Assembly (NCBI GenBank): GCA_024654575.1
Contig: JANLHG010000020.1
Coordinates: forward strand, 55,991 to 119,990
Length of the DNA: 64,000 nt
Source of the DNA: Patescibacteria group bacterium
GTDB taxonomy: Bacteria > Patescibacteriota > Minisyncoccia > Phycocordibacterales > PALSA-1337
Direction: 5' to 3'
Below, one piece after another: positions 3,366 to 47,940 of this stretch (its first letter is position 1; each line of letters begins with the position of its first letter). The position numbers and the translations under genes are program-made. Below the pieces are notes generated by a model. The model ran no database searches. It saw only the letters and a program-made list of their open reading frames with translations, and had not been told where the DNA came from.

Positions 3366-3519
3366 TTTCTGTTTTAAAAGTGAGGGACCAAAAAAAATTC
3401 CGCAAAAAATTACAGAAAATGGGATTGTAGTTTTTAATAATGAGATGTATTATTAAAGAGTTAGTAAAATTGAATATAGTAATCTAAATCAGTGAGTAAT
3501 CGCTGACATGATGAAAAGT

Positions 3520-3587
3520 CCAGACACGGGTAGAAAACCTATCATATTAGGATCGCCGTGTCTGGCCGTACCAGAGAAATTTGGTAC
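3520..3587 (+). promoter_or_regulatory. Two adjacent perfect hairpins (CCAGACACGG-N26-CCGTGTCTGG; GTACCA-N8-TGGTAC) in the leader of the 3642.. gene
   Basis: 10-bp and 6-bp perfect inverted repeats read directly from sequence. Confidence 0.35.
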
Positions 3588-3641
3588 TGGAGAACCGAAA
3601 GGAACTCGCTTAATGTGGTAGGTTTTTTGCGTGTAGAAATT

Positions 3642-14939: not shown

Positions 14940-17507
14940 TTAATTCATAAAAGTGTTAAGAGACACATAATCTTTTACATATGTAGGGACTGTAGTCTTG
15001 AAGCCATTGAGTCTCTGATATTCTTCGAAATCAAATGAGGCGCAAAAATTAAGCTGTGCTAATTGCTTAGTCTCAATAATCTCTCGAACTTGCGGATCTA
15101 CTATATATGCTTTGAAAAAGCTTTTAACTGGCGCATAGTGCTCTTGATCTACTGTATTTACTTCCGTGAATTTACTCCATTCTGATTCAAGTAACTCATC
15201 TTTGGATTCAAAATTACTTTTCTGTCCAAAAGCGACCTGTAGAAATTCACGAATAGTAATGCGACGATCAACATTAAAAGTTTTTCTAATTCCTTGTAGA
15301 TTAAGAAAGTGATTTGGTTTGTCGAAAATGTTGGTTTTAGTATAGTCTTCAGCTGCTGCTACGTCTCCATTATTCCAAAGGTTCTTTAACGTTTCGTTGG
15401 CAAGCACATCTTCTTCTACAGCACGCTTGAAGCCTTCGCGGTCAATACGCATACCTTCGGAGCCAATATGTTTTTCTGAAATTGTAGCAAGCTCATCCTG
15501 TGTAGCTAAATCTATTGGGCCTTTGAAAATATTAGTGCCATCTTCGTCAACGAATATATCTGAACCACCGGAATCTTTACCAGTTGTTGTATCAGTTTCT
15601 TTTATCTTCTTAATCTTCGGAAGTTTAATCTTTTCGTCATATTTAAATTCATTTTCAAAATATTCACAAGTAGCAAAAAAATCAAAGAATTTGAAATGTT
15701 CTTTATGTTTTGTGATAGTTTCTTTTGTTGCATAATCAATATATTCAAATTGATATTTTCTTGTGCCTCTTCCTTTAATTTGCACAAACTCCGCAGGGCT
15801 AAACACTGGACGCATCAGTGCTAAGTTTAAAATATCTTGACAGTCATAACCTGTAGTCATCATTCCAACAGTAACCGCTATGCGACTTTTACTAGAATCA
15901 TAACCCTCAGGACTTTTAACTTTGCCATTAAGCATATTATTAGAGAAGTTAATGGTCATTTGTTGAGCATTTTGGACCAAAGAAGTCACTTGCACGGCAA
16001 AATTTGATTCACTGTATTGTTCTGGCCATTTTTCAAAAGCCAGTTTGTTTAATATATTAGTTATTCTTGAAGCATGCTTTTGAGACACACAGAAAACAAT
16101 TGATTTTCCAAACAAGTCCAAATTATATTTTTTAGCAACAGGATCAAAGAGTCCGTTATCTATAAACGCTTTACACATTGCGATATTAGTTTCTTCGTTA
16201 AAGAATTTTCTTTCGTAATGACGTTCATTAAACACTTCGTTGATTGTCTCTCCTTGCTCTGTGGTGGAATGGACCGCATAACCATCTTCTGAGAGAAGTT
16301 CTGTGGTAATATCTGTGCGAGCGTCTACTACTATAGGATTTATAAGAAAACCATCTTTAACACCTGAAAGTAAATCATAGCTGAATGTTGGTTTACCTGA
16401 CTCGCATCCGAATGTCTTATATGTATCTAATAACTGTCTTCGTTCAAACTCTCTCTGTGTATCCGCACCTTCGCCATCAAATCCTTTGAGATAGTTTTTT
16501 GGCGTTGCGGTAAGTCCTAATTTATAGCCCACAAAGTATTCAAATACCGCACGACTGTTGCCACCAATGGACCTATGACTTTCATCACTGATAGTCAATT
16601 CAAAATCTGTAGGCGAAAATTCTTTTTTATACCTATCACCCGCAAGAAATGTCTGAATAGTAGAAACCACAATTTGAGCATTACGCCATGAATCACGGCT
16701 ATCTTTGTAGATAACACTAGTGTAATCCTTTCCTAAATATTGTTTGAAAGCTTTTTGTGCTTGTTCCTCAAGCTCTATGCGATCGACTAGAAATAGGATA
16801 CGACGAGCATTACCTGATTTAAGAAATAATTTTATGACTGCGGCAGAAATAAGCGTTTTACCAGTCCCAGTAGCCATTTCAAATAAGAATCTATTTTTAT
16901 TTTCAAATGCAGAAGATTGTAAACTTTTAATTGCCCCAACTTGATATGGACGCAATTGTTTAAGGTTATTATTATGTAGAAATTCTCGTTTCTTTGATTC
17001 GTCTTTAAAATCAGGATCATTAGCATAGCTAGGCATTTGCGATTCAATAATATAGTTTTCGTCTACTTTTGTACTAGCTAGTTCTGAAGGATTAGGAATA
17101 TATTTTTCATATTGTGTAATAGATTCTTGTGTTGGAAAACGGGAAATAGTATCAGGATTGCCATGTTTTGTATCCCATAAATAATGAATGTTGCCATTGG
17201 ATAATATAACGAATCGAGCATTTACAGTACGAGCATAATTTTTAGCTTGATCTTTAGCCGAAAGTGGATCGATCGATTCTTTCTTTGCCTCTACTACAAC
17301 AAGAGCCCTGCCGTCTTTATCTAAAAGAAGAAAATCAATAAATCCGTGCGTCTCTTGTTCAAAGTCGTCTCCAAGTTCTGAATACTTTACTCCTGGCTCA
17401 AGTTCAATATTAGCTTTTCCATTTTTATCATCTTCAAAACGCCATCCTGATTCTTCAAGCAGTTTGTTTATCTTAATACGAGCCGATGCTTCTTTTAATT
17501 TCATCAT
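14940..17507 (-). CDS. hsdR: Type I restriction enzyme R subunit (PD-(D/E)xK nuclease + SF2 helicase)
   Basis: N-terminal FIDFLLLD...VVVEAK nuclease motif; MATGTGKT Walker A; DESH; TATP. Confidence 0.85.
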   Translation of the reverse strand: MMKLKEASARIKINKLLEESGWRFEDDKNGKANIELEPGVKYSELGDDFEQETHGFIDFLLLDKDGRALVVVEAKKESIDPLSAKDQAKNYARTVNARFVILSNGNIHYLWDTKHGNPDTISRFPTQESITQYEKYIPNPSELASTKVDENYIIESQMPSYANDPDFKDESKKREFLHNNNLKQLRPYQVGAIKSLQSSAFENKNRFLFEMATGTGKTLISAAVIKLFLKSGNARRILFLVDRIELEEQAQKAFKQYLGKDYTSVIYKDSRDSWRNAQIVVSTIQTFLAGDRYKKEFSPTDFELTISDESHRSIGGNSRAVFEYFVGYKLGLTATPKNYLKGFDGEGADTQREFERRQLLDTYKTFGCESGKPTFSYDLLSGVKDGFLINPIVVDARTDITTELLSEDGYAVHSTTEQGETINEVFNERHYERKFFNEETNIAMCKAFIDNGLFDPVAKKYNLDLFGKSIVFCVSQKHASRITNILNKLAFEKWPEQYSESNFAVQVTSLVQNAQQMTINFSNNMLNGKVKSPEGYDSSKSRIAVTVGMMTTGYDCQDILNLALMRPVFSPAEFVQIKGRGTRKYQFEYIDYATKETITKHKEHFKFFDFFATCEYFENEFKYDEKIKLPKIKKIKETDTTTGKDSGGSDIFVDEDGTNIFKGPIDLATQDELATISEKHIGSEGMRIDREGFKRAVEEDVLANETLKNLWNNGDVAAAEDYTKTNIFDKPNHFLNLQGIRKTFNVDRRITIREFLQVAFGQKSNFESKDELLESEWSKFTEVNTVDQEHYAPVKSFFKAYIVDPQVREIIETKQLAQLNFCASFDFEEYQRLNGFKTTVPTYVKDYVSLNTFMN

Positions 17508-17578: not shown

Positions 17579-17787
17579 TAATTTTAAATATATAAATGAA
17601 TCAAAGTAATAGCCATTACTCAGTCTTTCTTTAAACGCTCTCTAGCTACATCTTTAACCAAATCAATAAGAGTATATTCTTCACCAAACCCTTTCTCTTT
17701 TCTTTTCTTTTCCAATCCAGTTTAGTGAAGGCATATTTTAATCTTACCAGTTTTTATATCACATTACTACCACCTATTGACACTATT

Positions 17788-17873
17788 AAAAATTTGGTGT
17801 GCAACTAAAAATTTATCCCCTTTTTTTGATTTTTTTCTTTGAAGCAACCACCCACATTGCTATAATTTAACAT
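17788..17873 (+). promoter_or_regulatory. Copy 1 of ~85-bp conserved promoter element (GTGCAAC...TTTATCCAC...TTGAAG-17-TATAAT)
   Basis: near-identical copies at 37660-37738 and 40338-40420; contains TTGAAG -35 and TATAAT -10 with 17-bp spacer and upstream A/T tract. Confidence 0.5.
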
Positions 17874-18222
17874 GTTGAGTACTGAAATATAATTTTATCT
17901 TTGTTTGTCTAATTTCTTCTCGTTAGTTACTGTAAATAATCGGTAATTAACGGGAGGGCGTTAGAAGGTAATACAGTCAATCCCTCAAATATACTGTAGT
18001 CAAGCATAGACTTAAAAAGCACTGCAAATGAAAACAAAATTTGCAAGATGTTTTCCACTTCCAGACGGCAACATGTGTTGCAAACATTGGAATGGAAACT
18101 ATATCGTCTTTCCCATGAAAGGAGATCATCGTTCAAGAAACGAAAAATCCCCCAATGAGGAGGACGATTCGGAAGAATAAACTACCAAATTTATTTTTCA
18201 ACCCACATTTCAAATTGAAGCG

Positions 18223-18476
18223 TGGGCAGAGGAAGTAATATAAAGCATGATTGGCTCTATAACTTAATGGATAAAGCAACAGATTAGTAATCTGTATCCA
18301 TCACAGGATGATTTATTCTTAAGTCATGATCTCGGTTCGAATCCGAGTAGAGCCGTTTTACTTCCTCTGTCCACTCTTCAAATTTTATAAAGAACGAAAA
18401 ATTACCCCATTTGGGGTGTGAACTAATCTTTTTATTAGAGTAGAATCATGTTTCATTTTTATCACCATATTAAATA
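18223..18476 (+). repeat. Repeated tRNA cassette copy 1: 16-bp inverted repeats (TGGGCAGAGGAAGTAA / TTACTTCCTCTGTCCA) flanking the tRNA-like gene plus ~100-bp conserved tail with CCCCATTTGGGG hairpin
   Basis: second copy at 38076-38313 with the same IRs and >90% identical tail but a different embedded tRNA-like sequence. Confidence 0.55.
18253..18355 (+). tRNA. atypical tRNA-like gene (103 nt): canonical acceptor, D arm (G18G19), anticodon arm (loop UUAGUAA) and T arm (GGTTCGAATCC), but a 35-nt insertion at the variable-arm position
   Basis: manual fold: GGCTCTA/TAGAGCC acceptor, ACAGA-TTAGTAA-TCTGT anticodon arm, CTCGG-TTCGAAT-CCGAG T arm; identity unresolved. Confidence 0.45.
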
Positions 18477-18709
18477 AACCGCGTATGTGTATCGTATTTG
18501 TTACTATATTAACGATACATTCAGTACAGGTACATTATACTATACGGCTAGTTACATAAAAGCAAGTTTCTGGGGAAAACACACATTCTAGGATATAAAA
18601 TATGAAATAAGTATGAATTATTAGTTTATGTCAATATAAGTTATACAATGCTAGTAAAATTAATATTTGGTACGATAACAACAAATGGATAGTTTTGCAT
18701 TAAACATAG

Positions 18710-34833: not shown

Positions 34834-35610
34834 TTATTTATTGTAATTTTGTATTCGTTTGTTTGCTAAATCCACATATTTTTTTTCTTTTTCGATTCCA
34901 ATCCAGTTTCTCTCAAGTGCCTTTGCGACAACAGCTGTCGTGCCACTTCCTAAAAATGGGTCAAGAATTAAATCACCTTTTTTACTAGAAGTTAAAATTA
35001 CTTGTTGAATAAGTTTTAATGGTTTTTGTGTGGGATGTGATTTTATTCCATTTTCATCTCGTAATCGTTCCTTACCTTTACATAAACCAAACACCCAGTC
35101 AGTATCTTTCATTTGTTTTCCACCGTTTATTTTTTTTAAGAAATCATTATTAAAAGTGTAATTTTTACAATTTTTATTTTTTACAGCCCAAATTAAAATT
35201 TCGTGATTATTTGTAAATCTTCTACCATTAAAATTTGGCATAGCATCAGTTTTGACCCAAATCACATCATTTAAAAACCATAACCCTAAGTCTTGCATAA
35301 TTTTACCAACTCGAAAAACATTATGGTACATACCCATTACCCAAATCGTTCCAGTTGGTTTCAATATTCTTTGACATTCTTTAATCCAATTACCTGTAAA
35401 AGTATCGTAATCTTCATAGCTTTCAAATTTATCCCATTCATCATTTACAGGAATTACTTCCGTTCCGTTTTCTCGTATAAGTTTTCTATTTTTCGGCAAT
35501 TGTAAATTATATGGTGGATCAGCAAAAATTAAATCAAAACTATTATCAGGAAATGTTTTTAATACCTCTAAACAATCACCATAAATTATGGTATTAACTA
35601 TTTTTTTCAT
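34834..35610 (-). CDS. beta-class DNA methyltransferase (N6-adenine or N4-cytosine)
   Basis: FADPPYN (motif IV) before SHPTQKP and LDPFLGSGTTAVVA (motif I): circularly permuted beta order. Confidence 0.8.
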   Translation of the reverse strand: MKKIVNTIIYGDCLEVLKTFPDNSFDLIFADPPYNLQLPKNRKLIRENGTEVIPVNDEWDKFESYEDYDTFTGNWIKECQRILKPTGTIWVMGMYHNVFRVGKIMQDLGLWFLNDVIWVKTDAMPNFNGRRFTNNHEILIWAVKNKNCKNYTFNNDFLKKINGGKQMKDTDWVFGLCKGKERLRDENGIKSHPTQKPLKLIQQVILTSSKKGDLILDPFLGSGTTAVVAKALERNWIGIEKEKKYVDLANKRIQNYNK

Positions 35611-35630
35611 AAAAATACAATAAAACCAAA

Positions 35631-36425
35631 CTATTCATCATATCTAATTTTTTTATATAGATTATCAAATATCTCAATTATTTCTTTATCTTCACTAACT
35701 TCTTTTAAGTAACCATCTAAATCTTCATATCTTATTGAAAAAAATTTATTAAATAAATCTGATCCACGACTTATATAATTCTTTTCTGGAACATAAATAT
35801 TACCTTTCATTCTTTTATAATTAAAGTAATATAGAATTGGTTTTAGATCATTAATATCATTTATTTTTAACTCTTTTACAAGACCTGCATAAGTCTTTAT
35901 GAATTTTCTATTAATATCTACAAACTTCCCTGTATCATGGTCATCATTATATTTAATTTCTAAATAATAATATTTTTTATCTTTTTTATCTTTAAATAAA
36001 CAATCTATATCATGTTTGTTTTCGATAAGATGTACTTTCTGTTTTTGTTCTCGGATAATATCATTTAAAAGTTTTTCAAATTTTTCTGTCAATTTATCAT
36101 CAGTATTATTTTGGCTATTTGATATAAACTTATCTATTATACTATCAGTATTTTCTGTTAAAGATAATTTAATATTCTTTTTACCAGAAAGATGTGGAAT
36201 TATTTCTAGATTTTTTTCTGACTCAACGATTTTATGTATTAATACTTCTATAAAATTACCAAATTGAATATTTAAAGATTGTAATAATCCACCAAAAACA
36301 CGATATTTAACGGGAACAAAATGTAACTTAACTTCGTGTTTTTTTGTTATTAAACCTATTTTATTTTTATTTGACGTATTATTTAGAAGTTCAATAACAG
36401 CGTCCTTTATTAATTTTTTAATCAT
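35631..36425 (-). CDS. putative Type II restriction endonuclease (no recognisable motif; positional inference)
   Basis: 264-aa ORF sandwiched between, and overlapping by 4 nt with, two MTase genes. Confidence 0.4.
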   Translation of the reverse strand: MIKKLIKDAVIELLNNTSNKNKIGLITKKHEVKLHFVPVKYRVFGGLLQSLNIQFGNFIEVLIHKIVESEKNLEIIPHLSGKKNIKLSLTENTDSIIDKFISNSQNNTDDKLTEKFEKLLNDIIREQKQKVHLIENKHDIDCLFKDKKDKKYYYLEIKYNDDHDTGKFVDINRKFIKTYAGLVKELKINDINDLKPILYYFNYKRMKGNIYVPEKNYISRGSDLFNKFFSIRYEDLDGYLKEVSEDKEIIEIFDNLYKKIRYDE

Positions 36426-37498
36426 ATTTTTAAATAAGTGTTTATATAATCCTGTCTTAAATCGTTGATCAGTACAAGTTGTCCTCTACGTTTAATATAC
36501 CAAAATGTCCAACCGTTATTTGTTTCTTTATTTAATAATCTAGCACTAACTTTATGAATTGATCCAATTTCCTCATTTGATGATAAGGTCGAATCTGCTA
36601 ATACTACCGCCTTTTTATCTCCATTCTTTAAATAAAGATTTTCACCAACATTAATTAAACCAGACTCAACTAAATTACCAAATGGAACTTTGGGATTTCT
36701 TGACTCAATCGGATATAGTAGTAGTTTTTCATCAATTAATTTAACTTTTTTTATTCTATCATTTGCTACTTTTATATAAAAATTCTCTTTTTCTATCCCT
36801 ATAAAATTTCTTCTCATTTTTTTTGCTACAGCTCCAGTTGTGCCACTTCCCATAAAAGGATCTAAAATTATATCTCCAATATTTGAAGTTGATAATATTA
36901 TTCTATAAAGTAAAGCTTCCGGTTTTTGAGTTGAATGAGCTTTATTTCCATTTACTTTTATTCTTTCTCCTCCACTACATATAGGTATGTACCAATCACT
37001 TCTCATTTGTTTATCATCGTTGAATGCTTTCATAGATCTATAGTGAAAAGTTGATTTAGACTTATCACTTTTTGATGCCAGAATCAACGTCTCTTGTGCA
37101 TTGTTAAATCTCGTACCTTTAAAATTAGGCATTGGATTAGTTTTAATCCAAATAATGTCATTCAATATCCAAAAACCAATGTCTTGCATAATTTTACCAA
37201 CTCGAAAAATATTATGATAACTACCAATAACCCAAATTGAACCATCTTTTTTTAAAACTCTTTTACATTCTAGTAACCAACTATAAGTAAACTTATCGTA
37301 GTCATCGAAAGAAGGAAATTTATCCCACTTATCATTTACTGCACTTACTTTAGTTTGATTGGGTCTATAAAGATCACCTTTTAGTTGTAAATTATATGGT
37401 GGATCAGCAAAAATAAGATCTACAGAATTTTCTGGTAATTTTTTAAGAGTTTCTATACAATCACCTTTTATTATTGTATTTAAATATTTCTTATCCAT
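36422..37498 (-). CDS. beta-class DNA methyltransferase with C-terminal extension
   Basis: FADPPYN, STQKP, LDPFMGSGTTGAVA; ~120-aa C-terminal extra domain. Confidence 0.8.
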   Translation of the reverse strand: MDKKYLNTIIKGDCIETLKKLPENSVDLIFADPPYNLQLKGDLYRPNQTKVSAVNDKWDKFPSFDDYDKFTYSWLLECKRVLKKDGSIWVIGSYHNIFRVGKIMQDIGFWILNDIIWIKTNPMPNFKGTRFNNAQETLILASKSDKSKSTFHYRSMKAFNDDKQMRSDWYIPICSGGERIKVNGNKAHSTQKPEALLYRIILSTSNIGDIILDPFMGSGTTGAVAKKMRRNFIGIEKENFYIKVANDRIKKVKLIDEKLLLYPIESRNPKVPFGNLVESGLINVGENLYLKNGDKKAVVLADSTLSSNEEIGSIHKVSARLLNKETNNGWTFWYIKRRGQLVLINDLRQDYINTYLKI

Positions 37499-37659
37499 AA
37501 ATTTTATAATCTAATTCTACTGTATGTTCAAATGAAATCATATTTTTGTGAAATTACAGATTTTCAATATAATTATTCTTACTCCATATTATTTCATATT
37601 TTTGAGTTTTTTTCTAGTCAGTTATTTTGAAAGCATTTGTTTTGACAAATACAATAATT

Positions 37660-37738
37660 CAGCGTGCAACCTAAAATTTATCCACATTTTTTGATTTTTT
37701 CTTTGAAGTTATACACCTACATTGCTATAATTTAACAT
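37660..37738 (+). promoter_or_regulatory. Copy 2 of conserved ~85-bp promoter element
   Basis: see 17788-17873. Confidence 0.5.
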
Positions 37739-37875
37739 ATTAGGTATTGAAAATTGAAATTTGTAATTTCTCACTTAACATCTAAATTTGGATTTTGAGT
37801 GAGGAATTAGAAATCGTGACAGCATCCTCTCCATCGTTGACTTGAAATACGAATTGGATAAATAGTCAAAAACCT

Positions 37876-37989
37876 ATGAAAATAGGAAGAAGTGCTAAAA
37901 CTGGAAAGTTTGTTCCAGTGAAAAAGGCTCGAGATAACCCATCTACATATGTAGTGGAAACAATCAAGCCCCAGAAAAAAAGAAAATAG
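37876..37989 (+). CDS. possible 37-aa basic peptide in the leader between promoter copy 2 and tRNA-like gene 2
   Basis: MKIGRSAKTGKFVPVKKARDNPSTYVVETIKPQKKRK; followed by AAATAGCC...GGCTATTT hairpin; weak RBS. Confidence 0.25.
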   Translation: MKIGRSAKTGKFVPVKKARDNPSTYVVETIKPQKKRK

Positions 37990-38075
37990 CCCTCGTGTTC
38001 AAACAAAAGGCTATTTTCTAAAAAATTAATATAAACTTTCTTACGAATTTTTATATACCCATACCTTTTGAAGGT

Positions 38076-38313
38076 TGGGCAGAGGAAGTAACACAAGTGA
38101 TTAGGATCTGTGATGAAATTGGTAGACATAATGATTTATCATATCATCGCCGTACAAGCATGCGAGTTCGAATCTCGCCAGATCCACAATTACTTCCTCT
38201 ATCCACTCTTCAAATTTTATAAAGAACGAAAAATTACACCATTTGGGGTGTGAACTAATCTTTTTATTAGAATAGAATCACGTTTCATTTTTATCACTAT
38301 TTTAAACAAACCG
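38076..38313 (+). repeat. Repeated tRNA cassette copy 2 (IRs at 38076-38091 and 38190-38205 plus conserved tail)
   Basis: see 18223-18476. Confidence 0.55.
38104..38186 (+). tRNA. tRNA-like gene (83 nt) with type II (Leu-like) architecture: 3-bp D stem, D-loop AAATTGGTAGA, 14-nt variable region; anticodon loop UUAUCAU
   Basis: GGATCTG/CAGATCC acceptor, ATGAT-TTATCAT-ATCAT anticodon arm, GCGAG-TTCGAAT-CTCGC T arm; anticodon identity ambiguous. Confidence 0.5.
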
Positions 38314-38433
38314 TATATATATGTCATACTATTACATGAGTATATTATACTAATCATTTAGACAGTTTATGATAAAAAACTGTGGATAACTATCCTATAT
38401 TACATTAACGAATAAATCAACTTTAGAACTCCC

Positions 38434-38885: not shown

Positions 38886-38957
38886 GCGCGCTTAGCTCAG
38901 TGGTAGAGCGACCCCTTGACGTGGGGTAGGCCGTGGGTTCAATCCCCTCAGCGCGCA
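38886..38957 (+). tRNA. tRNA-Val: tRNA-Val (anticodon GAC)
   Basis: GCGCGCT acceptor, GCTC-AGTGGTAGA-GAGC D arm, ACCCC-TTGACGT-GGGGT anticodon arm, GTGGG-TTCAATC-CCCTC T arm (one U-U mismatch). Confidence 0.85.
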
Positions 38958-39133
38958 CATTTATCTAACGACTTCTTGCAGTTTTGCAATACATCTCACG
39001 CAAACAGTTTGATTTTTTCGAGTTTTAATATATTTATTTCCACAAACACACACCAAAATCTCCGCGATAGTTTTTTTCTCTATCCATTTACCCATTTTTG
39101 AAAAAGGTTTTTGATGAATTGCCGGTTTCATAT

Positions 39134-40270: not shown

Positions 40271-40337
40271 TTACCTACTATATATCAAAACACTTATTTT
40301 GTCAATCAACCGAAAGATATACTAAAATTGACACTCG

Positions 40338-40420
40338 GAAAAATTTGGCGTGCAACTCCAAATTTATCCACATTTTTAGATTTTTTTCTTTGAAGTTAAT
40401 GCTTACGCTGATATAATTTA
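40338..40420 (+). promoter_or_regulatory. Copy 3 of conserved ~85-bp promoter element, 30 bp upstream of nrdJ
   Basis: see 17788-17873. Confidence 0.5.
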
Positions 40421-40451
40421 TTAAATTAATAGATTGATTAAAAAATAATAT

Positions 40452-43150: not shown

Positions 43151-45029
<1,879 letters not shown>

Positions 45030-47553: not shown

Positions 47554-47940
47554 ATGCAAAAAGATTTTAATGGGTGGAATAAAAAAAAGAAAAAAATGCA
47601 TAATCGGGAAGATACTCCATTTTTTCATACGAGAGAAATTTGGTGGTGTTCTCTAGGAGTTAATATCGGTTTTGAACAAGATGGTACTGGTGAAAACTTT
47701 TACAGACCCGTACTTATTTTAAAAGGTATGAGCAAAGAAACATGTTTTGTAATACCGCTTACCACTTCAGATAAAAGGCATAAGTTTCGTCCATCAATTG
47801 GTATTGTAGATGGAAAAGAAGCTAAAGCATTACTTTCTCAAATGCGTCTAATTGATGCCAAAAGATTAATACGAAAAATGGAATATCTAGATGAAAAGAT
47901 TTTTGAACGCATAAGAAAAACCATCAAAGAAATGCTTTGA
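47554..47940 (+). CDS. MazF/PemK-like endoribonuclease toxin (putative), no obvious antitoxin
   Basis: REIWWCSLGVNIGFEQDG...RPVLILK...CFVIPLTTS fits PemK fold pattern. Confidence 0.45.
   Translation: MQKDFNGWNKKKKKMHNREDTPFFHTREIWWCSLGVNIGFEQDGTGENFYRPVLILKGMSKETCFVIPLTTSDKRHKFRPSIGIVDGKEAKALLSQMRLIDAKRLIRKMEYLDEKIFERIRKTIKEML

What the first reader, a model, noticed from the sequence alone, without database searches (positions are those of the whole stretch)
18253..18355. Both cassette tRNAs are aberrant: one has a 35-nt insertion at the variable-arm position, and both place A at anticodon position 34 (AGU, AUC)
Gene 1 folds with perfect acceptor, D (G18G19), anticodon and T arms, but carries 35 nt between the anticodon stem and the T stem, longer than any type II variable arm. 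Gene 2 (38104-38186) has a textbook tRNA-Leu body (3-bp D stem, AAATTGGTAGA D-loop, long variable arm). Its 7-nt loop reads UUAUCAU, which would put AUC rather than an NAN leucine anticodon at 34-36. Unmodified A34 is almost never used in bacteria. These may be decoy or pseudo-tRNAs, tRNAs needing unusual processing, or mobile-element tRNAs with altered decoding.
Basis: seen in the sequence. Interest (0 to 1): 0.55.

Follow-up and report, generated by a model that had tools for sequence, protein, structure and literature searches.

The report
Hairpin-caged hybrid tRNA genes
A tiny-genome (CPR/Paceibacteria) bacterium carries two copies of a repeated cassette, each holding an intact but mismatched tRNA gene (an arginine-type and a leucine-type body carrying threonine and aspartate anticodons that start with A) inside a 24-bp hairpin; they look like imported, possibly miscoding tRNAs, but nothing here shows what they do.

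Summary
Rfam's tRNA model matches 18253-18355 (54.8 bits, about 35 extra nt at the variable position) and 38104-38186 (50.7 bits). The anticodons are AGT (18286-18288) and ATC (38138-38140). The invariant tRNA nucleotides I checked are all present, so these are not decayed pseudogenes. Both genes are hybrids: gene 1 has a tRNA-Arg(UCU)-type body and gene 2 a tRNA-Leu body. Both are AT-rich (39-43% GC), whereas the host tRNA-Val nearby is 65% GC.

Each tRNA sits exactly between the arms of a 24-nt inverted repeat, followed by a shared 3' block of about 115 nt (91% identity over arm plus block). Each lies downstream of a paralogue of the ribonucleotide-reductase promoter, next to a restriction-modification operon; cassette 2 at least lies in a variable island.

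Related Paceibacteria carry a conserved tRNA-Ser(ACU). One (L068) has a Leu-bodied tRNA with anticodon ACG inside a 17-bp leader/trailer helix.

Best reading (about 0.4): acquired, expressed hybrid-identity tRNAs that read U-ending codons, with gene 2 probably inserting Leu at GAU, released from a hairpin precursor. No relative of the cassette was found, so function stays inferred.

The parts
17777..17887 (+). Cassette 1 promoter module, a paralogue of the ribonucleotide-reductase promoter (repeat D2). It has -35 TTGAAG at 17839 and an extended -10 TGcTATAAT ending at 17866.
   Evidence: Three-copy repeat. Motif search gives 3 hits against 0 expected. Alignment; promoter scan scores 10 of 12 with TG.
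18028..18180 (+). Small ORF (50 aa, Cys-rich) between the promoter and tRNA 1. Coding status is uncertain, and it is not homologous to the small ORF of cassette 2.
   Evidence: ORF list; no Pfam match.
18215..18238 (+). 5' arm of the inverted repeat, TTGAAGCGTGGGCAGAGGAAGTAA.
   Evidence: RNA fold z = -9.2.
18253..18355 (+). tRNA gene 1. It has a tRNA-Arg(UCU)-type body, anticodon AGT at 18286-18288 and discriminator G73. No CCA is encoded.
   Evidence: Rfam 54.8 bits. Model R1 35.2 bits. Closest body is a crAss-like phage tRNA-Arg(tct).
18296..18330 (+). 35-nt insert at the variable-arm position. It contains an 8-bp hairpin ATGATTTA-TTCT-TAAGTCAT. Its first 6 nt, ATCCAT, are complementary to the D-loop sequence ATGGAT.
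   Evidence: It is unique in the window and absent from the loci held.
18358..18381 (+). 3' arm of the inverted repeat, TTACTTCCTCTGTCCACTCTTCAA.
18382..18496 (+). Conserved 3' block (rest of repeat D3). It includes hairpin ACCCCATTTGGGGT at 18404-18417, which reads as a terminator on the minus strand.
   Evidence: Repeat D3 (18358-18496, 3' arm included) is 91% identical to 38190-38328. Terminator scan.
37642..37752 (+). Cassette 2 promoter module (repeat D2 copy). It has -35 TTGAAG at 37703 and a -10 TATAAT ending at 37731.
37876..37989 (+). Small ORF (37 aa, basic) followed by a hairpin. Coding status is uncertain.
   Evidence: no significant Pfam match.
38068..38091 (+). 5' arm of the inverted repeat, TTGAAGGTTGGGCAGAGGAAGTAA.
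   Evidence: RNA fold z = -5.1.
38104..38186 (+). tRNA gene 2. It has a class II tRNA-Leu body (D arm GATGAAATTGGTAGACAT, A73) with a weakened variable stem. The anticodon is ATC at 38138-38140.
   Evidence: ARAGORN. Rfam 50.7 bits. Alignment with Paceibacteria tRNA-Leu. Model R1 35.2 bits.
38190..38213 (+). 3' arm of the inverted repeat, TTACTTCCTCTATCCACTCTTCAA.
38214..38328 (+). Conserved 3' block (repeat D3 copy).

Best explanation
The two loci are intact, expressible, horizontally acquired non-canonical tRNA genes carried by one repeated cassette.

Each keeps the full tRNA fold of one identity class. Gene 1 has a tRNA-Arg(UCU)-type body that has gained a long, class-II-like variable hairpin. 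Gene 2 has a tRNA-Leu body. In both, the anticodon has been retargeted to a frequent U-ending codon through A34: AGU reads ACU (Thr) and AUC reads GAU (Asp).

The cassette probably works as follows. Transcription starts at a paralogue of the ribonucleotide-reductase promoter 360-400 nt upstream. The tRNA emerges enclosed in a 24-bp leader/trailer helix, which must be cut or opened before the ends can mature and CCA can be added; RNase III-type cleavage followed by RNase P and 3' trimming is the likely route.

The mature tRNAs would then decode NNU codons. LeuRS ignores the anticodon, so gene 2 would most likely carry Leu to GAU, which is deliberate or conditional mistranslation. Gene 1 would be charged according to G35/U36 (Thr) or, through G73 plus the long variable arm, possibly Ser.

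Shown here: gene structure, hybrid composition, the hairpin, cassette modularity, the promoter paralogy and the foreign-type base composition (plus, for cassette 2, its place in a variable island). Inferred: transcription, processing, charging and decoding.
For: Intact tRNAs. Full-length covariance-model matches at 54.8 and 50.7 bits. Read from the sequence, U8, A14, G18G19, A21, U33, R37, G53, T54, T55, C56, A58 and C61 are all present.

Hybrid identity. Gene 1 shares its D arm and anticodon stem with a phage tRNA-Arg(tct); the loop is TTtctAA in the phage and TTagtAA here. Its alignment score to that tRNA is 44, against 21 for the next best. Gene 2 aligns with Paceibacteria tRNA-Leu, including A73.

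Foreign type. GC is 0.39 and 0.42-0.43, against 0.65 for the adjacent host tRNA-Val. A close relative, L070, loses synteny exactly at tRNA-Val.

Hairpin. The arm motif gives 4 hits against 0.09 expected. Fold z-scores are -9.2 and -5.1. Leader/trailer duplex energies are -39.7 and -32.2 kcal/mol, against a median of -15.1 for 71 tRNAs.

Independent analogue. L068 12375-12458 is a Leu-bodied tRNA with A34 anticodon ACG inside a 17-bp leader/trailer helix (-37.8 kcal/mol, fold z = -8.6).

A34 is tolerated in the lineage. tRNA-Ser(ACU) occurs in L050, L052 and L055.

Codon match. GAT is 44 and ACT 22 per 1000 codons, each 3-4 times more frequent than its C-ending partner.

Promoter. The extended -10 promoter is shared with the RNR gene and conserved upstream of RNR in L070.

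Precedent. tRNAProX tRNAs carry A34 anticodons AGC, AGU and AUU on a Pro body and mistranslate (PMC10404621). Ser-identity allo-tRNAs carry non-Ser anticodons (PMC5389517).
Against: No homologue of the cassette was found anywhere, so there is no covariation or conservation evidence for function.

The differences between the two copies of the arms are not compensatory, and copy 2 has two mismatches (sequence).

Gene 1 has an A10.C25 mismatch. The variable stem of gene 2 is reduced to 2 bp.

GAU is 4.4% of codons, so a constitutively expressed Leu-tRNA(AUC) should be very toxic.

No dedicated synthetase, nuclease or regulator lies next to either cassette.

Expression, processing and charging are all untested.
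Confidence: 0.4

Rival explanations
1. Non-translational tRNA mimics. The RNAs fold as tRNAs but act as decoys, sponges or sensors, for example for anticodon nucleases, tRNA-modifying enzymes or phage factors in a defence island. On this reading the anticodons are not meant to decode anything.
For: Both cassettes lie divergent to restriction-modification operons, with hsdR at 14940-17507 and a HinfI-like methylase at 36422-37498. The body and anticodon mismatch means that normal decoding would be harmful. The hairpin caging is unlike ordinary tRNA genes. The tRNAProX authors themselves allow a role outside translation.
Against: Homologous HinfI-like R-M loci in four other contigs have no such cassette, so there is no conserved linkage. 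No nuclease or sensor gene lies next to either cassette. Canonical U33, R37 and 7-nt loops are what a decoding tRNA needs.
Confidence: 0.2
2. Inert passengers. These are relics of phage or mobile-element tRNA genes carried on a foldback or MITE-like repeat with 24-bp terminal inverted repeats. They are recently duplicated and not yet decayed, and have no current function.
For: Only two copies exist and no relatives were found. The arm differences are non-compensatory. The high identity of the arms and 3' block (91%) fits a recent spread. The A10.C25 mismatch and the weak variable stem in gene 2 could be early decay. Base composition is of a foreign type.
Against: All the invariant tRNA positions I checked are intact, and both genes reach scores typical of real class II tRNAs. 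Each gene lies downstream of a strong conserved promoter on the same strand. Two unrelated tRNAs sit in precisely the same slot, which a simple duplication does not explain. No target-site duplication is visible. Small CPR genomes are expected to lose dead DNA quickly (general knowledge, not tested here).
Confidence: 0.25
3. RNA-processing or stability elements. The tRNA fold and helix serve the neighbouring transcript. RNase P or RNase III cleavage at the tRNA-like structure would define the 3' end of the small-ORF mRNA, as mascRNA does for MALAT1, or the giant hairpin would act as a terminator or insulator.
For: The tRNAs lie 3' of small ORFs driven by the shared promoter. Each helix is followed by a short U tract, CTTCAAATTTTAT. 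The L068 analogue sits just 3' of the RNR gene, inside an outer stem that ends in TTTTT. Minus-strand terminators flank cassette 1.
Against: This role gives no reason for specific retargeted A34 anticodons, or for two different complete tRNA bodies with all the tertiary-interaction nucleotides I checked. The two small ORFs are unrelated and of doubtful coding status.
Confidence: 0.1

Closest known systems
tRNAProX family (tRNAProA/T/N) of Streptomyces and Kitasatospora (PMC10404621)
   Same: A natural bacterial tRNA whose body has one identity and whose anticodon belongs to another amino acid. Every member has A34 (AGC, AGU, AUU), and AGU is the anticodon of gene 1. The family is sporadically distributed and was shown to mistranslate in E. 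coli.
   Different: tRNAProX has a Pro body with C1:G72, A33 and an A15:A48 pair, and lies next to a dedicated ProRSx gene. The genes here have Arg-type and Leu-type bodies with U33 and G1:C72, no synthetase gene nearby and a leader/trailer hairpin. There is no sequence relationship.
allo-tRNAs (Ser-identity tRNAs with non-Ser anticodons; PMC5389517)
   Same: Long-variable-arm tRNAs whose synthetase ignores the anticodon. They carry many non-cognate anticodons and are often found near toxin-antitoxin or transposon genes. Some are inactive.
   Different: allo-tRNAs are defined by an 8/4 or 9/3 acceptor/T-stem geometry. Both genes here have the canonical 7/5 geometry.
Canonical bacterial class II tRNA-Leu
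   Same: Gene 2 shares the 3-bp D stem, the AAATTGGTAGA D loop, A73 and an extra arm with Paceibacteria tRNA-Leu.
   Different: The anticodon is AUC rather than NAG or NAA. Position 37 is A, not the G seen in the GAG and UAG isoacceptors aligned. The variable stem is degenerate, and GC content is 0.43 against about 0.58-0.61.
Phage-encoded tRNAs (for example the crAss-like Kolpuevirus tRNA-Arg(UCU), OQ198718)
   Same: Gene 1 is 91% identical over 47 nt to this tRNA, covering part of the acceptor stem, the D arm and the 5' half of the anticodon arm. Like phage tRNAs, it is AT-rich compared with the host tRNAs seen here.
   Different: The anticodon is AGU rather than UCU, there is a 35-nt variable insert, and the gene lies in a bacterial chromosome without phage genes nearby.
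[quoted passage not shown]
   Same: Same phylum, and these genes are also missed by standard annotation. The isoacceptors concerned include Asp and Thr, the two codon families addressed by the cassette anticodons.
   Different: Those inserts are self-splicing group I ribozymes, far longer than 35 nt, sitting in the anticodon loop. Here the insert is 35 nt, lies at the variable position and has no ribozyme signature.
RNase III processing stalks of rRNA operons, and leader/trailer helices of archaeal or split tRNAs
   Same: A long helix formed by sequences flanking a structured RNA, separate from the mature molecule.
   Different: As far as I know, such helices are not described as a conserved cassette around single bacterial tRNA genes. 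Cleavage here is only inferred.

Membership tests
tRNA (Rfam RF00005) | Cloverleaf covariance-model score above the gathering threshold (29 bits) | tested here: met
   54.8 bits for 18253-18355 and 50.7 bits for 38104-38186, both full length.
tRNA (Rfam RF00005) | Conserved tertiary-interaction nucleotides (U8, A14, G18G19, A21, U33, G53, T54, T55, C56, A58, C61) | tested here: met
   Read directly from the alignments. All are present in both genes. Gene 1 has one A10.C25 mismatch in the D stem.
Canonical bacterial elongator tRNA | Variable region of 4-5 nt (class I) or up to about 21 nt (class II) | tested here: not met
   Gene 1 has 35 nt at 18296-18330. Gene 2 has 14 nt, which is within range.
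Canonical bacterial elongator tRNA | Anticodon belongs to the same amino acid as the identity elements of the body | tested here: not met
   Gene 1 combines an Arg(UCU)-type body (A20-type D loop AATGGATA) with AGU. Gene 2 combines a Leu body with AUC. The identity rules themselves come from established knowledge and were not assayed here.
Canonical bacterial elongator tRNA | No A at position 34, except in tRNA-Arg(ACG) and a few I34 tRNAs | tested here: not met
   Both genes have A34. Relatives, however, carry tRNA-Ser(ACU).
tRNAProX dual-identity tRNAs | Pro identity (C1:G72, A73) with A33 and A34 | tested here: not met
   Both genes have G1:C72 and U33. Only A34 is shared (sequence; comparison with PMC10404621).
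tRNAProX dual-identity tRNAs | Adjacent dedicated synthetase paralogue (ProRSx) | tested here: not met
   Pfam scans of the flanking ORFs find no aminoacyl-tRNA synthetase domain.
tRNAProX dual-identity tRNAs | Demonstrated mistranslation of the codon addressed | not testable with these tools
   Needs reporter assays and mass spectrometry.
allo-tRNA | 8/4 or 9/3 acceptor/T-stem configuration | tested here: not met
   Both genes have 7-bp acceptor and 5-bp T stems.
tRNA gene with a group I intron (Patescibacteria type) | Group I ribozyme inserted in the anticodon loop | tested here: not met
   Rfam in E-value mode gives no intron or ribozyme match over the cassettes or the window. The insert is 35 nt and lies outside the anticodon loop.
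tRNA-Leu (class II) | 3-bp D stem with AAATTGGTAGA loop, A73 and a long variable arm | tested here: met
   Gene 2 aligned with three Paceibacteria tRNA-Leu genes. The variable stem is weakened.
tRNA-Leu (class II) | Leucine anticodon (NAG or NAA) | tested here: not met
   The anticodon is ATC.
MITE or foldback transposable element | Terminal inverted repeats flanked by a target-site duplication, in many dispersed copies | tested here: inconclusive
   Inverted repeats are present. No target-site duplication is visible. There are only 2 copies in 64 kb, none in 70 related loci and none in the public scans. Similarity continues about 115 nt beyond the 3' arm, which does not fit arms as element ends.
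tRNA pseudogene | Loss of stems or of invariant nucleotides | tested here: not met
   There is only one mismatched pair in gene 1 and a weak variable stem in gene 2. Scores are comparable to genuine class II tRNAs.

The most novel reading that the evidence does not exclude
The cassettes represent a previously undescribed kind of programmed-miscoding module in CPR bacteria. tRNAs whose synthetases ignore the anticodon (LeuRS for gene 2 and for the L068 tRNA; possibly SerRS for gene 1, which has G73 and an acquired long variable arm) are retargeted through A34 to single U-ending sense codons. They are held as inactive precursors in a long leader/trailer helix and expressed from a ribonucleotide-reductase-type promoter. 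Release would then cause codon-specific mistranslation, such as GAU to Leu, as a stress or abortive-infection response within a defence island.
Probability: 0.12. Interest if true: 0.85.

Novelty: new variant of a known kind. Interest (0 to 1): 0.55.

Why it matters
Natural tRNAs whose anticodon contradicts their identity are rare. They bear on how the genetic code can be bent, through deliberate mistranslation or codon reassignment. Only a few families are known, such as tRNAProX and the allo-tRNAs.

If these genes are active, they would extend the phenomenon to the CPR/Patescibacteria and to Leu- and Arg-type scaffolds. They would add a new feature, a conserved hairpin 'cage' around interchangeable tRNAs. 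They would also suggest that A34 is a recurrent way to restrict a retargeted tRNA to one U-ending codon.

There is a practical point too. Gene 1 is missed by ARAGORN in default mode. Gene 2 is labelled tRNA-Asp by its anticodon and was missed by a whole-window Rfam scan. Such genes are therefore probably under-counted or mis-annotated in MAGs.

Tried and rejected
1. Exact or degenerate scans found no cassette relative. I scanned for the arms, the 3' block and both tRNA bodies in viral contigs, GTDB genomes and JGI metagenomes. BLAST against phages and plasmids gave only one match: the 5' half of gene 1 to a crAss-like tRNA-Arg.

2. The single metagenome hit (L001) lies in an acidic stretch (FEEWAEEV) of a phage structural-type ORF with no tRNA. 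About 0.3 chance matches were expected in the GTDB scan, and a similar order in the metagenome scan. I rejected it as chance.

3. Synteny. Sixty-seven RNR-centred Paceibacteria loci and the close relative L070 hold no cassette.

4. Linkage to restriction-modification systems. Homologues of the adjacent HinfI-like methylase on four contigs lack the cassette. I rejected the idea that it is a conserved R-M accessory.

5. Intron or ribozyme in the 35-nt insert. Rfam gives no hit, and the insert has no other copy.

6. Alternative fold of gene 1 as tRNA-Tyr(gta) with an 8-nt intron (ARAGORN -i). Rejected: it needs a 3-bp stem and A33, and the canonical stem is shared with the phage homologue.

7. 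A tRNA covariance model built from 44 local tRNAs, searched over 1.2 Mb, found no other tRNA with a giant variable insert.

8. The source contig could not be fetched. Exact look-ups of window proteins returned nothing, so the organism's full tRNA set and the presence of tadA could not be checked.

9. The 37-aa ORF was too short for the homology search.

10. The window shows no TadA, synthetase, integrase or phage genes near the cassettes.
Full report
**What is there.** Rfam's tRNA covariance model matches 18253-18355 (+) over its whole length at 54.8 bits (gathering score 29). A 32-nt insert state sits between the anticodon and T arms. In a local scan the model also matches 38104-38186 (+) at 50.7 bits. 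The whole-window gathering run lost that second gene to its filters. ARAGORN in default mode calls only gene 2, as tRNA-Asp(atc), plus an ordinary tRNA-Val(gac) at 38886-38958.

Gene 1 reads GGCTCTA-TA-ACTT-AATGGATA-AAGC-A-ACAGA-TTAGTAA-TCTGT-[35 nt, 18296-18330]-CTCGG-TTCGAAT-CCGAG-TAGAGCC-G. Its anticodon AGT is at 18286-18288.

Gene 2 reads GGATCTG-TG-ATG-AAATTGGTAGA-CAT-A-ATGAT-TTATCAT-ATCAT-[14 nt]-GCGAG-TTCGAAT-CTCGC-CAGATCC-A. Its anticodon ATC is at 38138-38140.

All the usual invariant positions are present in both (U8, A14, G18G19, A21, U33, purine 37, G53, T54, T55, C56, A58, C61). The blemishes are an A10.C25 pair in gene 1 (flagged) and a variable stem of only two pairs in gene 2.

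A model I built from 44 ordinary class I tRNAs of related genomes scores both genes at 35.2 bits. That is inside the range of genuine class II Leu and Ser tRNAs of the lineage (29-46 bits).

The one rival fold comes from ARAGORN's intron mode, which gives tRNA-Tyr(gta) with an 8-nt intron for gene 1. It needs a 3-bp anticodon stem and A33. It also discards a perfect 5-bp stem that a homologous phage tRNA shares. I reject it.

**The organism and the neighbourhood.** The window is chromosomal: it encodes DnaK, GrpE, RpoA, ribosomal protein S11, TGT and a class II ribonucleotide reductase. By RNR and DEAD-box helicase relatives it belongs to a Paceibacteria/Parcubacteria (CPR, Patescibacteria) MAG. 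RNR identity to 67 genomes of that group is at most 82%, and the identical helicase is annotated 'Patescibacteria group bacterium' on a 181,649-nt contig. That source contig could not be fetched.

Both tRNA loci sit in long intergenic regions divergent to restriction-modification genes. Cassette 1 lies beside a type I hsdR at 14940-17507. Cassette 2 lies beside a HinfI-like methylase-nuclease-methylase cluster at 34834-37498.

In the closest available relative (L070; helicase 89% identical) synteny runs from RNR through the helicase to tRNA-Val and then breaks. Beyond that point L070 carries other defence-type genes. Cassette 2 therefore lies in a variable island next to tRNA-Val. No phage, integrase, synthetase or nuclease gene lies next to either cassette.

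**The cassette.** Each tRNA lies exactly between the arms of a 24-nt inverted repeat. The 5' arms are TTGAAGnnTGGGCAGAGGAAGTAA at 18215-18238 and 38068-38091. The 3' arms are TTACTTCCTCTrTCCACTCTTCAA at 18358-18381 and 38190-38213. The arm motif gives four hits against 0.09 expected.

As RNA, the arms form a helix that encloses the tRNA. A 12-14-nt 5' linker shares the motif AAG..TGATT between the copies, and the 3' linker is 2-3 nt. Fold z-scores are -9.2 and -5.1.

The repeat that begins at the 3' arm and runs through the next 115 nt is 91% identical between the two loci. About 360-400 nt upstream, on the same strand, each locus has a roughly 110-nt promoter module (TTGAAG, 16-17 nt, TGnTATAAT). 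Its third copy is the promoter of the RNR gene at 40328-40438, and that copy is conserved at 84% upstream of RNR in L070.

The sequences between promoter and arm are not alignable. They hold unrelated small ORFs of 50 aa and 37 aa with no family match.

The cassette is thus modular: a shared promoter type, a variable leader, a shared hairpin and 3' block, and two unrelated tRNAs swapped precisely at the tRNA boundaries. The few differences between the two copies of the arms are not compensatory. The helix therefore has thermodynamic and statistical support but no covariation support.

**What the tRNAs are.** Both are hybrids. With the insert removed, gene 1 is far closer to a crAss-like phage tRNA-Arg(UCU) than to anything else held. 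It is 91% identical over 47 nt, with an alignment score of 44 against 21 for the next best, itself a Paceibacteria tRNA-Arg(UCU). The two share the D arm (AATGGATA loop, A20 type) and the anticodon stem. The loops differ only in the anticodon, TT-TCT-AA against TT-AGT-AA.

Gene 2 aligns with Paceibacteria tRNA-Leu through the diagnostic D arm, the extra arm and A73. Its closest relative in my set is another oddity, described below.

Both genes are 39-43% GC. The adjacent tRNA-Val is 65% GC, and the tRNAs of related genomes are mostly about 45-68%. This is the pattern of phage or mobile-element tRNAs.

From established identity rules (my knowledge, not tested here), bacterial LeuRS and SerRS do not read the anticodon. 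ArgRS needs C35, ThrRS relies on G35/U36, and AspRS needs G73, G34 and C38. Gene 2 would therefore most plausibly be charged with Leu while reading GAU. Gene 1 would lose Arg identity and could be charged with Thr. With G73, G2:C71, C11:G24 and its newly acquired long arm, it could conceivably be charged with Ser instead.

**The insert.** The 35 nt are unique: there is no other copy in the window or in 1.1 Mb of related loci. They contain an 8-bp hairpin, ATGATTTA-TTCT-TAAGTCAT, which forms in both the free and the cloverleaf-constrained folds. The insert in effect turns a class I tRNA into a long-arm tRNA.

Its first six bases, ATCCAT, are complementary to the D-loop sequence ATGGAT. As a result, the unconstrained minimum-energy fold (-33.0 against -30.7 kcal/mol) pairs them. 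This could be a chance match; I estimate a chance of a few per cent. Alternatively it could be a conformational switch.

No intron or ribozyme family matches the insert. Known Patescibacteria tRNA introns are group I ribozymes in the anticodon loop (PMC13011429). I therefore see no support for excision.

**Is A34 aberrant here?** Less so than assumed. Three related Paceibacteria genomes carry a conserved tRNA-Ser(ACU), with a proper Ser body and encoded CCA, next to tRNA-Ser(GCU). One relative uses tRNA-Arg(GCG).

The literature states that unmodified A34 pairs best with U (abstract of PMC11066159). In this window GAT outnumbers GAC by 44 to 12 per 1000 codons, and ACT outnumbers ACC by 22 to 7.5. 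A34 thus gives a decoder for a frequent U-ending codon.

**An independent analogue.** I ranked 71 tRNA genes by the predicted pairing energy between their 60-nt leaders and trailers. The two window genes (-39.7 and -32.2 kcal/mol) and one gene from a different genus stand at the top, against a median of -15.1.

That third gene is L068 12375-12458, and it scored -37.8 kcal/mol. ARAGORN labels it tRNA-Arg(acg). Its body, however, is Leu-type (GCGAAATTGGTATACGC, long arm, A73). It sits in a 17-bp leader/trailer helix inside an outer stem ending in TTTTT, just 3' of the RNR terminator.

Its flanks are not alignable with the window's. It is therefore an analogue rather than a demonstrable homologue. 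It does show that the combination of Leu body, non-Leu A34 anticodon and long enclosing helix recurs in this group.

**Most likely mechanism and its rivals.** I favour, at about 0.4, acquired and active hybrid-identity tRNAs. On this reading they are transcribed from the RNR-type promoter and released from a hairpin precursor. Release would involve RNase III-type cleavage or unwinding, then RNase P, 3' trimming and CCA addition, since the host tRNA-Val also lacks an encoded CCA. The mature tRNAs would decode ACU and GAU, and gene 2 would probably miscode Asp as Leu.

The nearest precedents are the tRNAProX family and the Ser-identity allo-tRNAs. tRNAProX members have a Pro body with A34 anticodons AGC, AGU and AUU, and they mistranslate in E. 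coli (PMC10404621). The allo-tRNAs carry non-Ser anticodons and are often found near toxin-antitoxin or transposon genes (PMC5389517).

The window genes fail the defining features of both families. They lack C1:G72 and A33, have no adjacent synthetase, and have 7/5 rather than 8/4 or 9/3 stems. They resemble these families in logic, not in membership.

Several points count against my preferred reading. No relatives exist, so there is no evolutionary test. GAU is 4.4% of codons, so unregulated Leu insertion would be severe. Nothing here shows expression or charging.

The rivals are a non-translational decoy or sensor in a defence island (0.2), inert relics on a foldback-type repeat (0.25) and a processing or terminator element for neighbouring transcripts (0.1). 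The first is weakened by the lack of any conserved linkage to the R-M systems. The second is weakened by the intact tRNA architecture and promoters. The third gives no reason for complete tRNAs with retargeted anticodons.

**Verdict.** I rate the finding a new variant of a known kind, dual-identity or non-canonical tRNAs, with an unusual and apparently undescribed hairpin-cassette context. Interest is moderate to fairly high, limited by the single-genome evidence.

Noticed in passing
window 17777-17887, 37642-37752, 40328-40438: A roughly 110-nt promoter module occurs three times: TTGACA..AATTTGGyGTGCAAC..AAATTTATCC..TTGAAG-N16/17-TGnTATAAT. The third copy is the promoter of the class II ribonucleotide-reductase gene and is 84% conserved upstream of RNR in relative L070. 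The two tRNA cassettes may therefore be co-regulated with RNR. The upstream conserved part looks like a regulator binding site but does not match the NrdR box as I remember it.
   Followed up: partly
L068 12335-12495: A Paceibacteria relative carries a Leu-bodied class II tRNA with anticodon ACG (A34), which ARAGORN labels tRNA-Arg. It is enclosed by a 17-bp leader/trailer helix and an outer stem ending in TTTTT, immediately 3' of the RNR terminator. An SD-like GGGAGG followed by ATG overlaps the tRNA 5' end.
   Followed up: partly
L050 17329-17418, L052 16054-16143, L055 15855-15943: tRNA-Ser(ACU), with A34 in a two-codon box, a proper Ser body and encoded CCA, is conserved in three Paceibacteria genomes beside tRNA-Ser(GCU). 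If A34 were deaminated to inosine it would also read the Arg codon AGA, so A34 is presumably unmodified.
   Followed up: partly
L040 9017-9125; L011 19202-19272 and 20663-20733: tRNA-like elements that ARAGORN does not call. They share the T arm CGGGTTCAACTCCCG and a GGG.A.G acceptor, with aberrant or missing D and anticodon arms (25-27 bits with my model). The L040 copy lies in an 18-bp inverted repeat. The two L011 copies are part of roughly 120-nt direct repeats 1.46 kb apart, which looks like attachment-site duplication.
   Followed up: partly
window 18385-18456 (-) and 38217-38288 (-): The conserved 3' block of both cassettes contains a 23-codon ORF on the minus strand, MK(H/R)DS(T/I)LIKRLVHTPNGVIFRSL, preceded by GGTGA. 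The ORF spans the ACCCC/GGGGT hairpin. It could be a chance ORF in AT-rich DNA, a small peptide or a small RNA.
   Followed up: no
window 3481-3607 (+): A full-length match to the Rfam LOOT RNA family (RF03000; 57.2 bits, gathering score 46.4), upstream of small membrane-like ORFs.
   Followed up: no
window 34834-37498; L072 1-190: A HinfI-like restriction-modification cluster with two paralogous N6/N4 methylases (73-83% nucleotide identity in blocks). In a relative (L072/L073) the same cluster starts about 150 nt after the 3' end of an ordinary GC-rich tRNA gene. This fits a mobile island that integrates at tRNA genes.
   Followed up: partly
window 18239-18252 and 38092-38103: The 5' linkers between arm and tRNA share the motif AAG..(A/G)TGATT. 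An ATG or GTG lies 10-13 nt after the SD-like GAGGAAG of the arm and opens very short or tRNA-spanning ORFs (6 aa and 41 aa). This is probably coincidence, but the L068 element shows the same arrangement.
   Followed up: no
L069 19587-19656 (-): A 5' fragment (positions 1-47) of tRNA-Arg(UCU) lies about 130 nt upstream of a complete tRNA-Arg(UCU) gene, suggesting a partial duplication.
   Followed up: no
window 47554-47940 (+): A MazF/PemK-type toxin gene lies beside a pseudouridine synthase gene. TGT (43797-45020) is also in the window.
   Followed up: no
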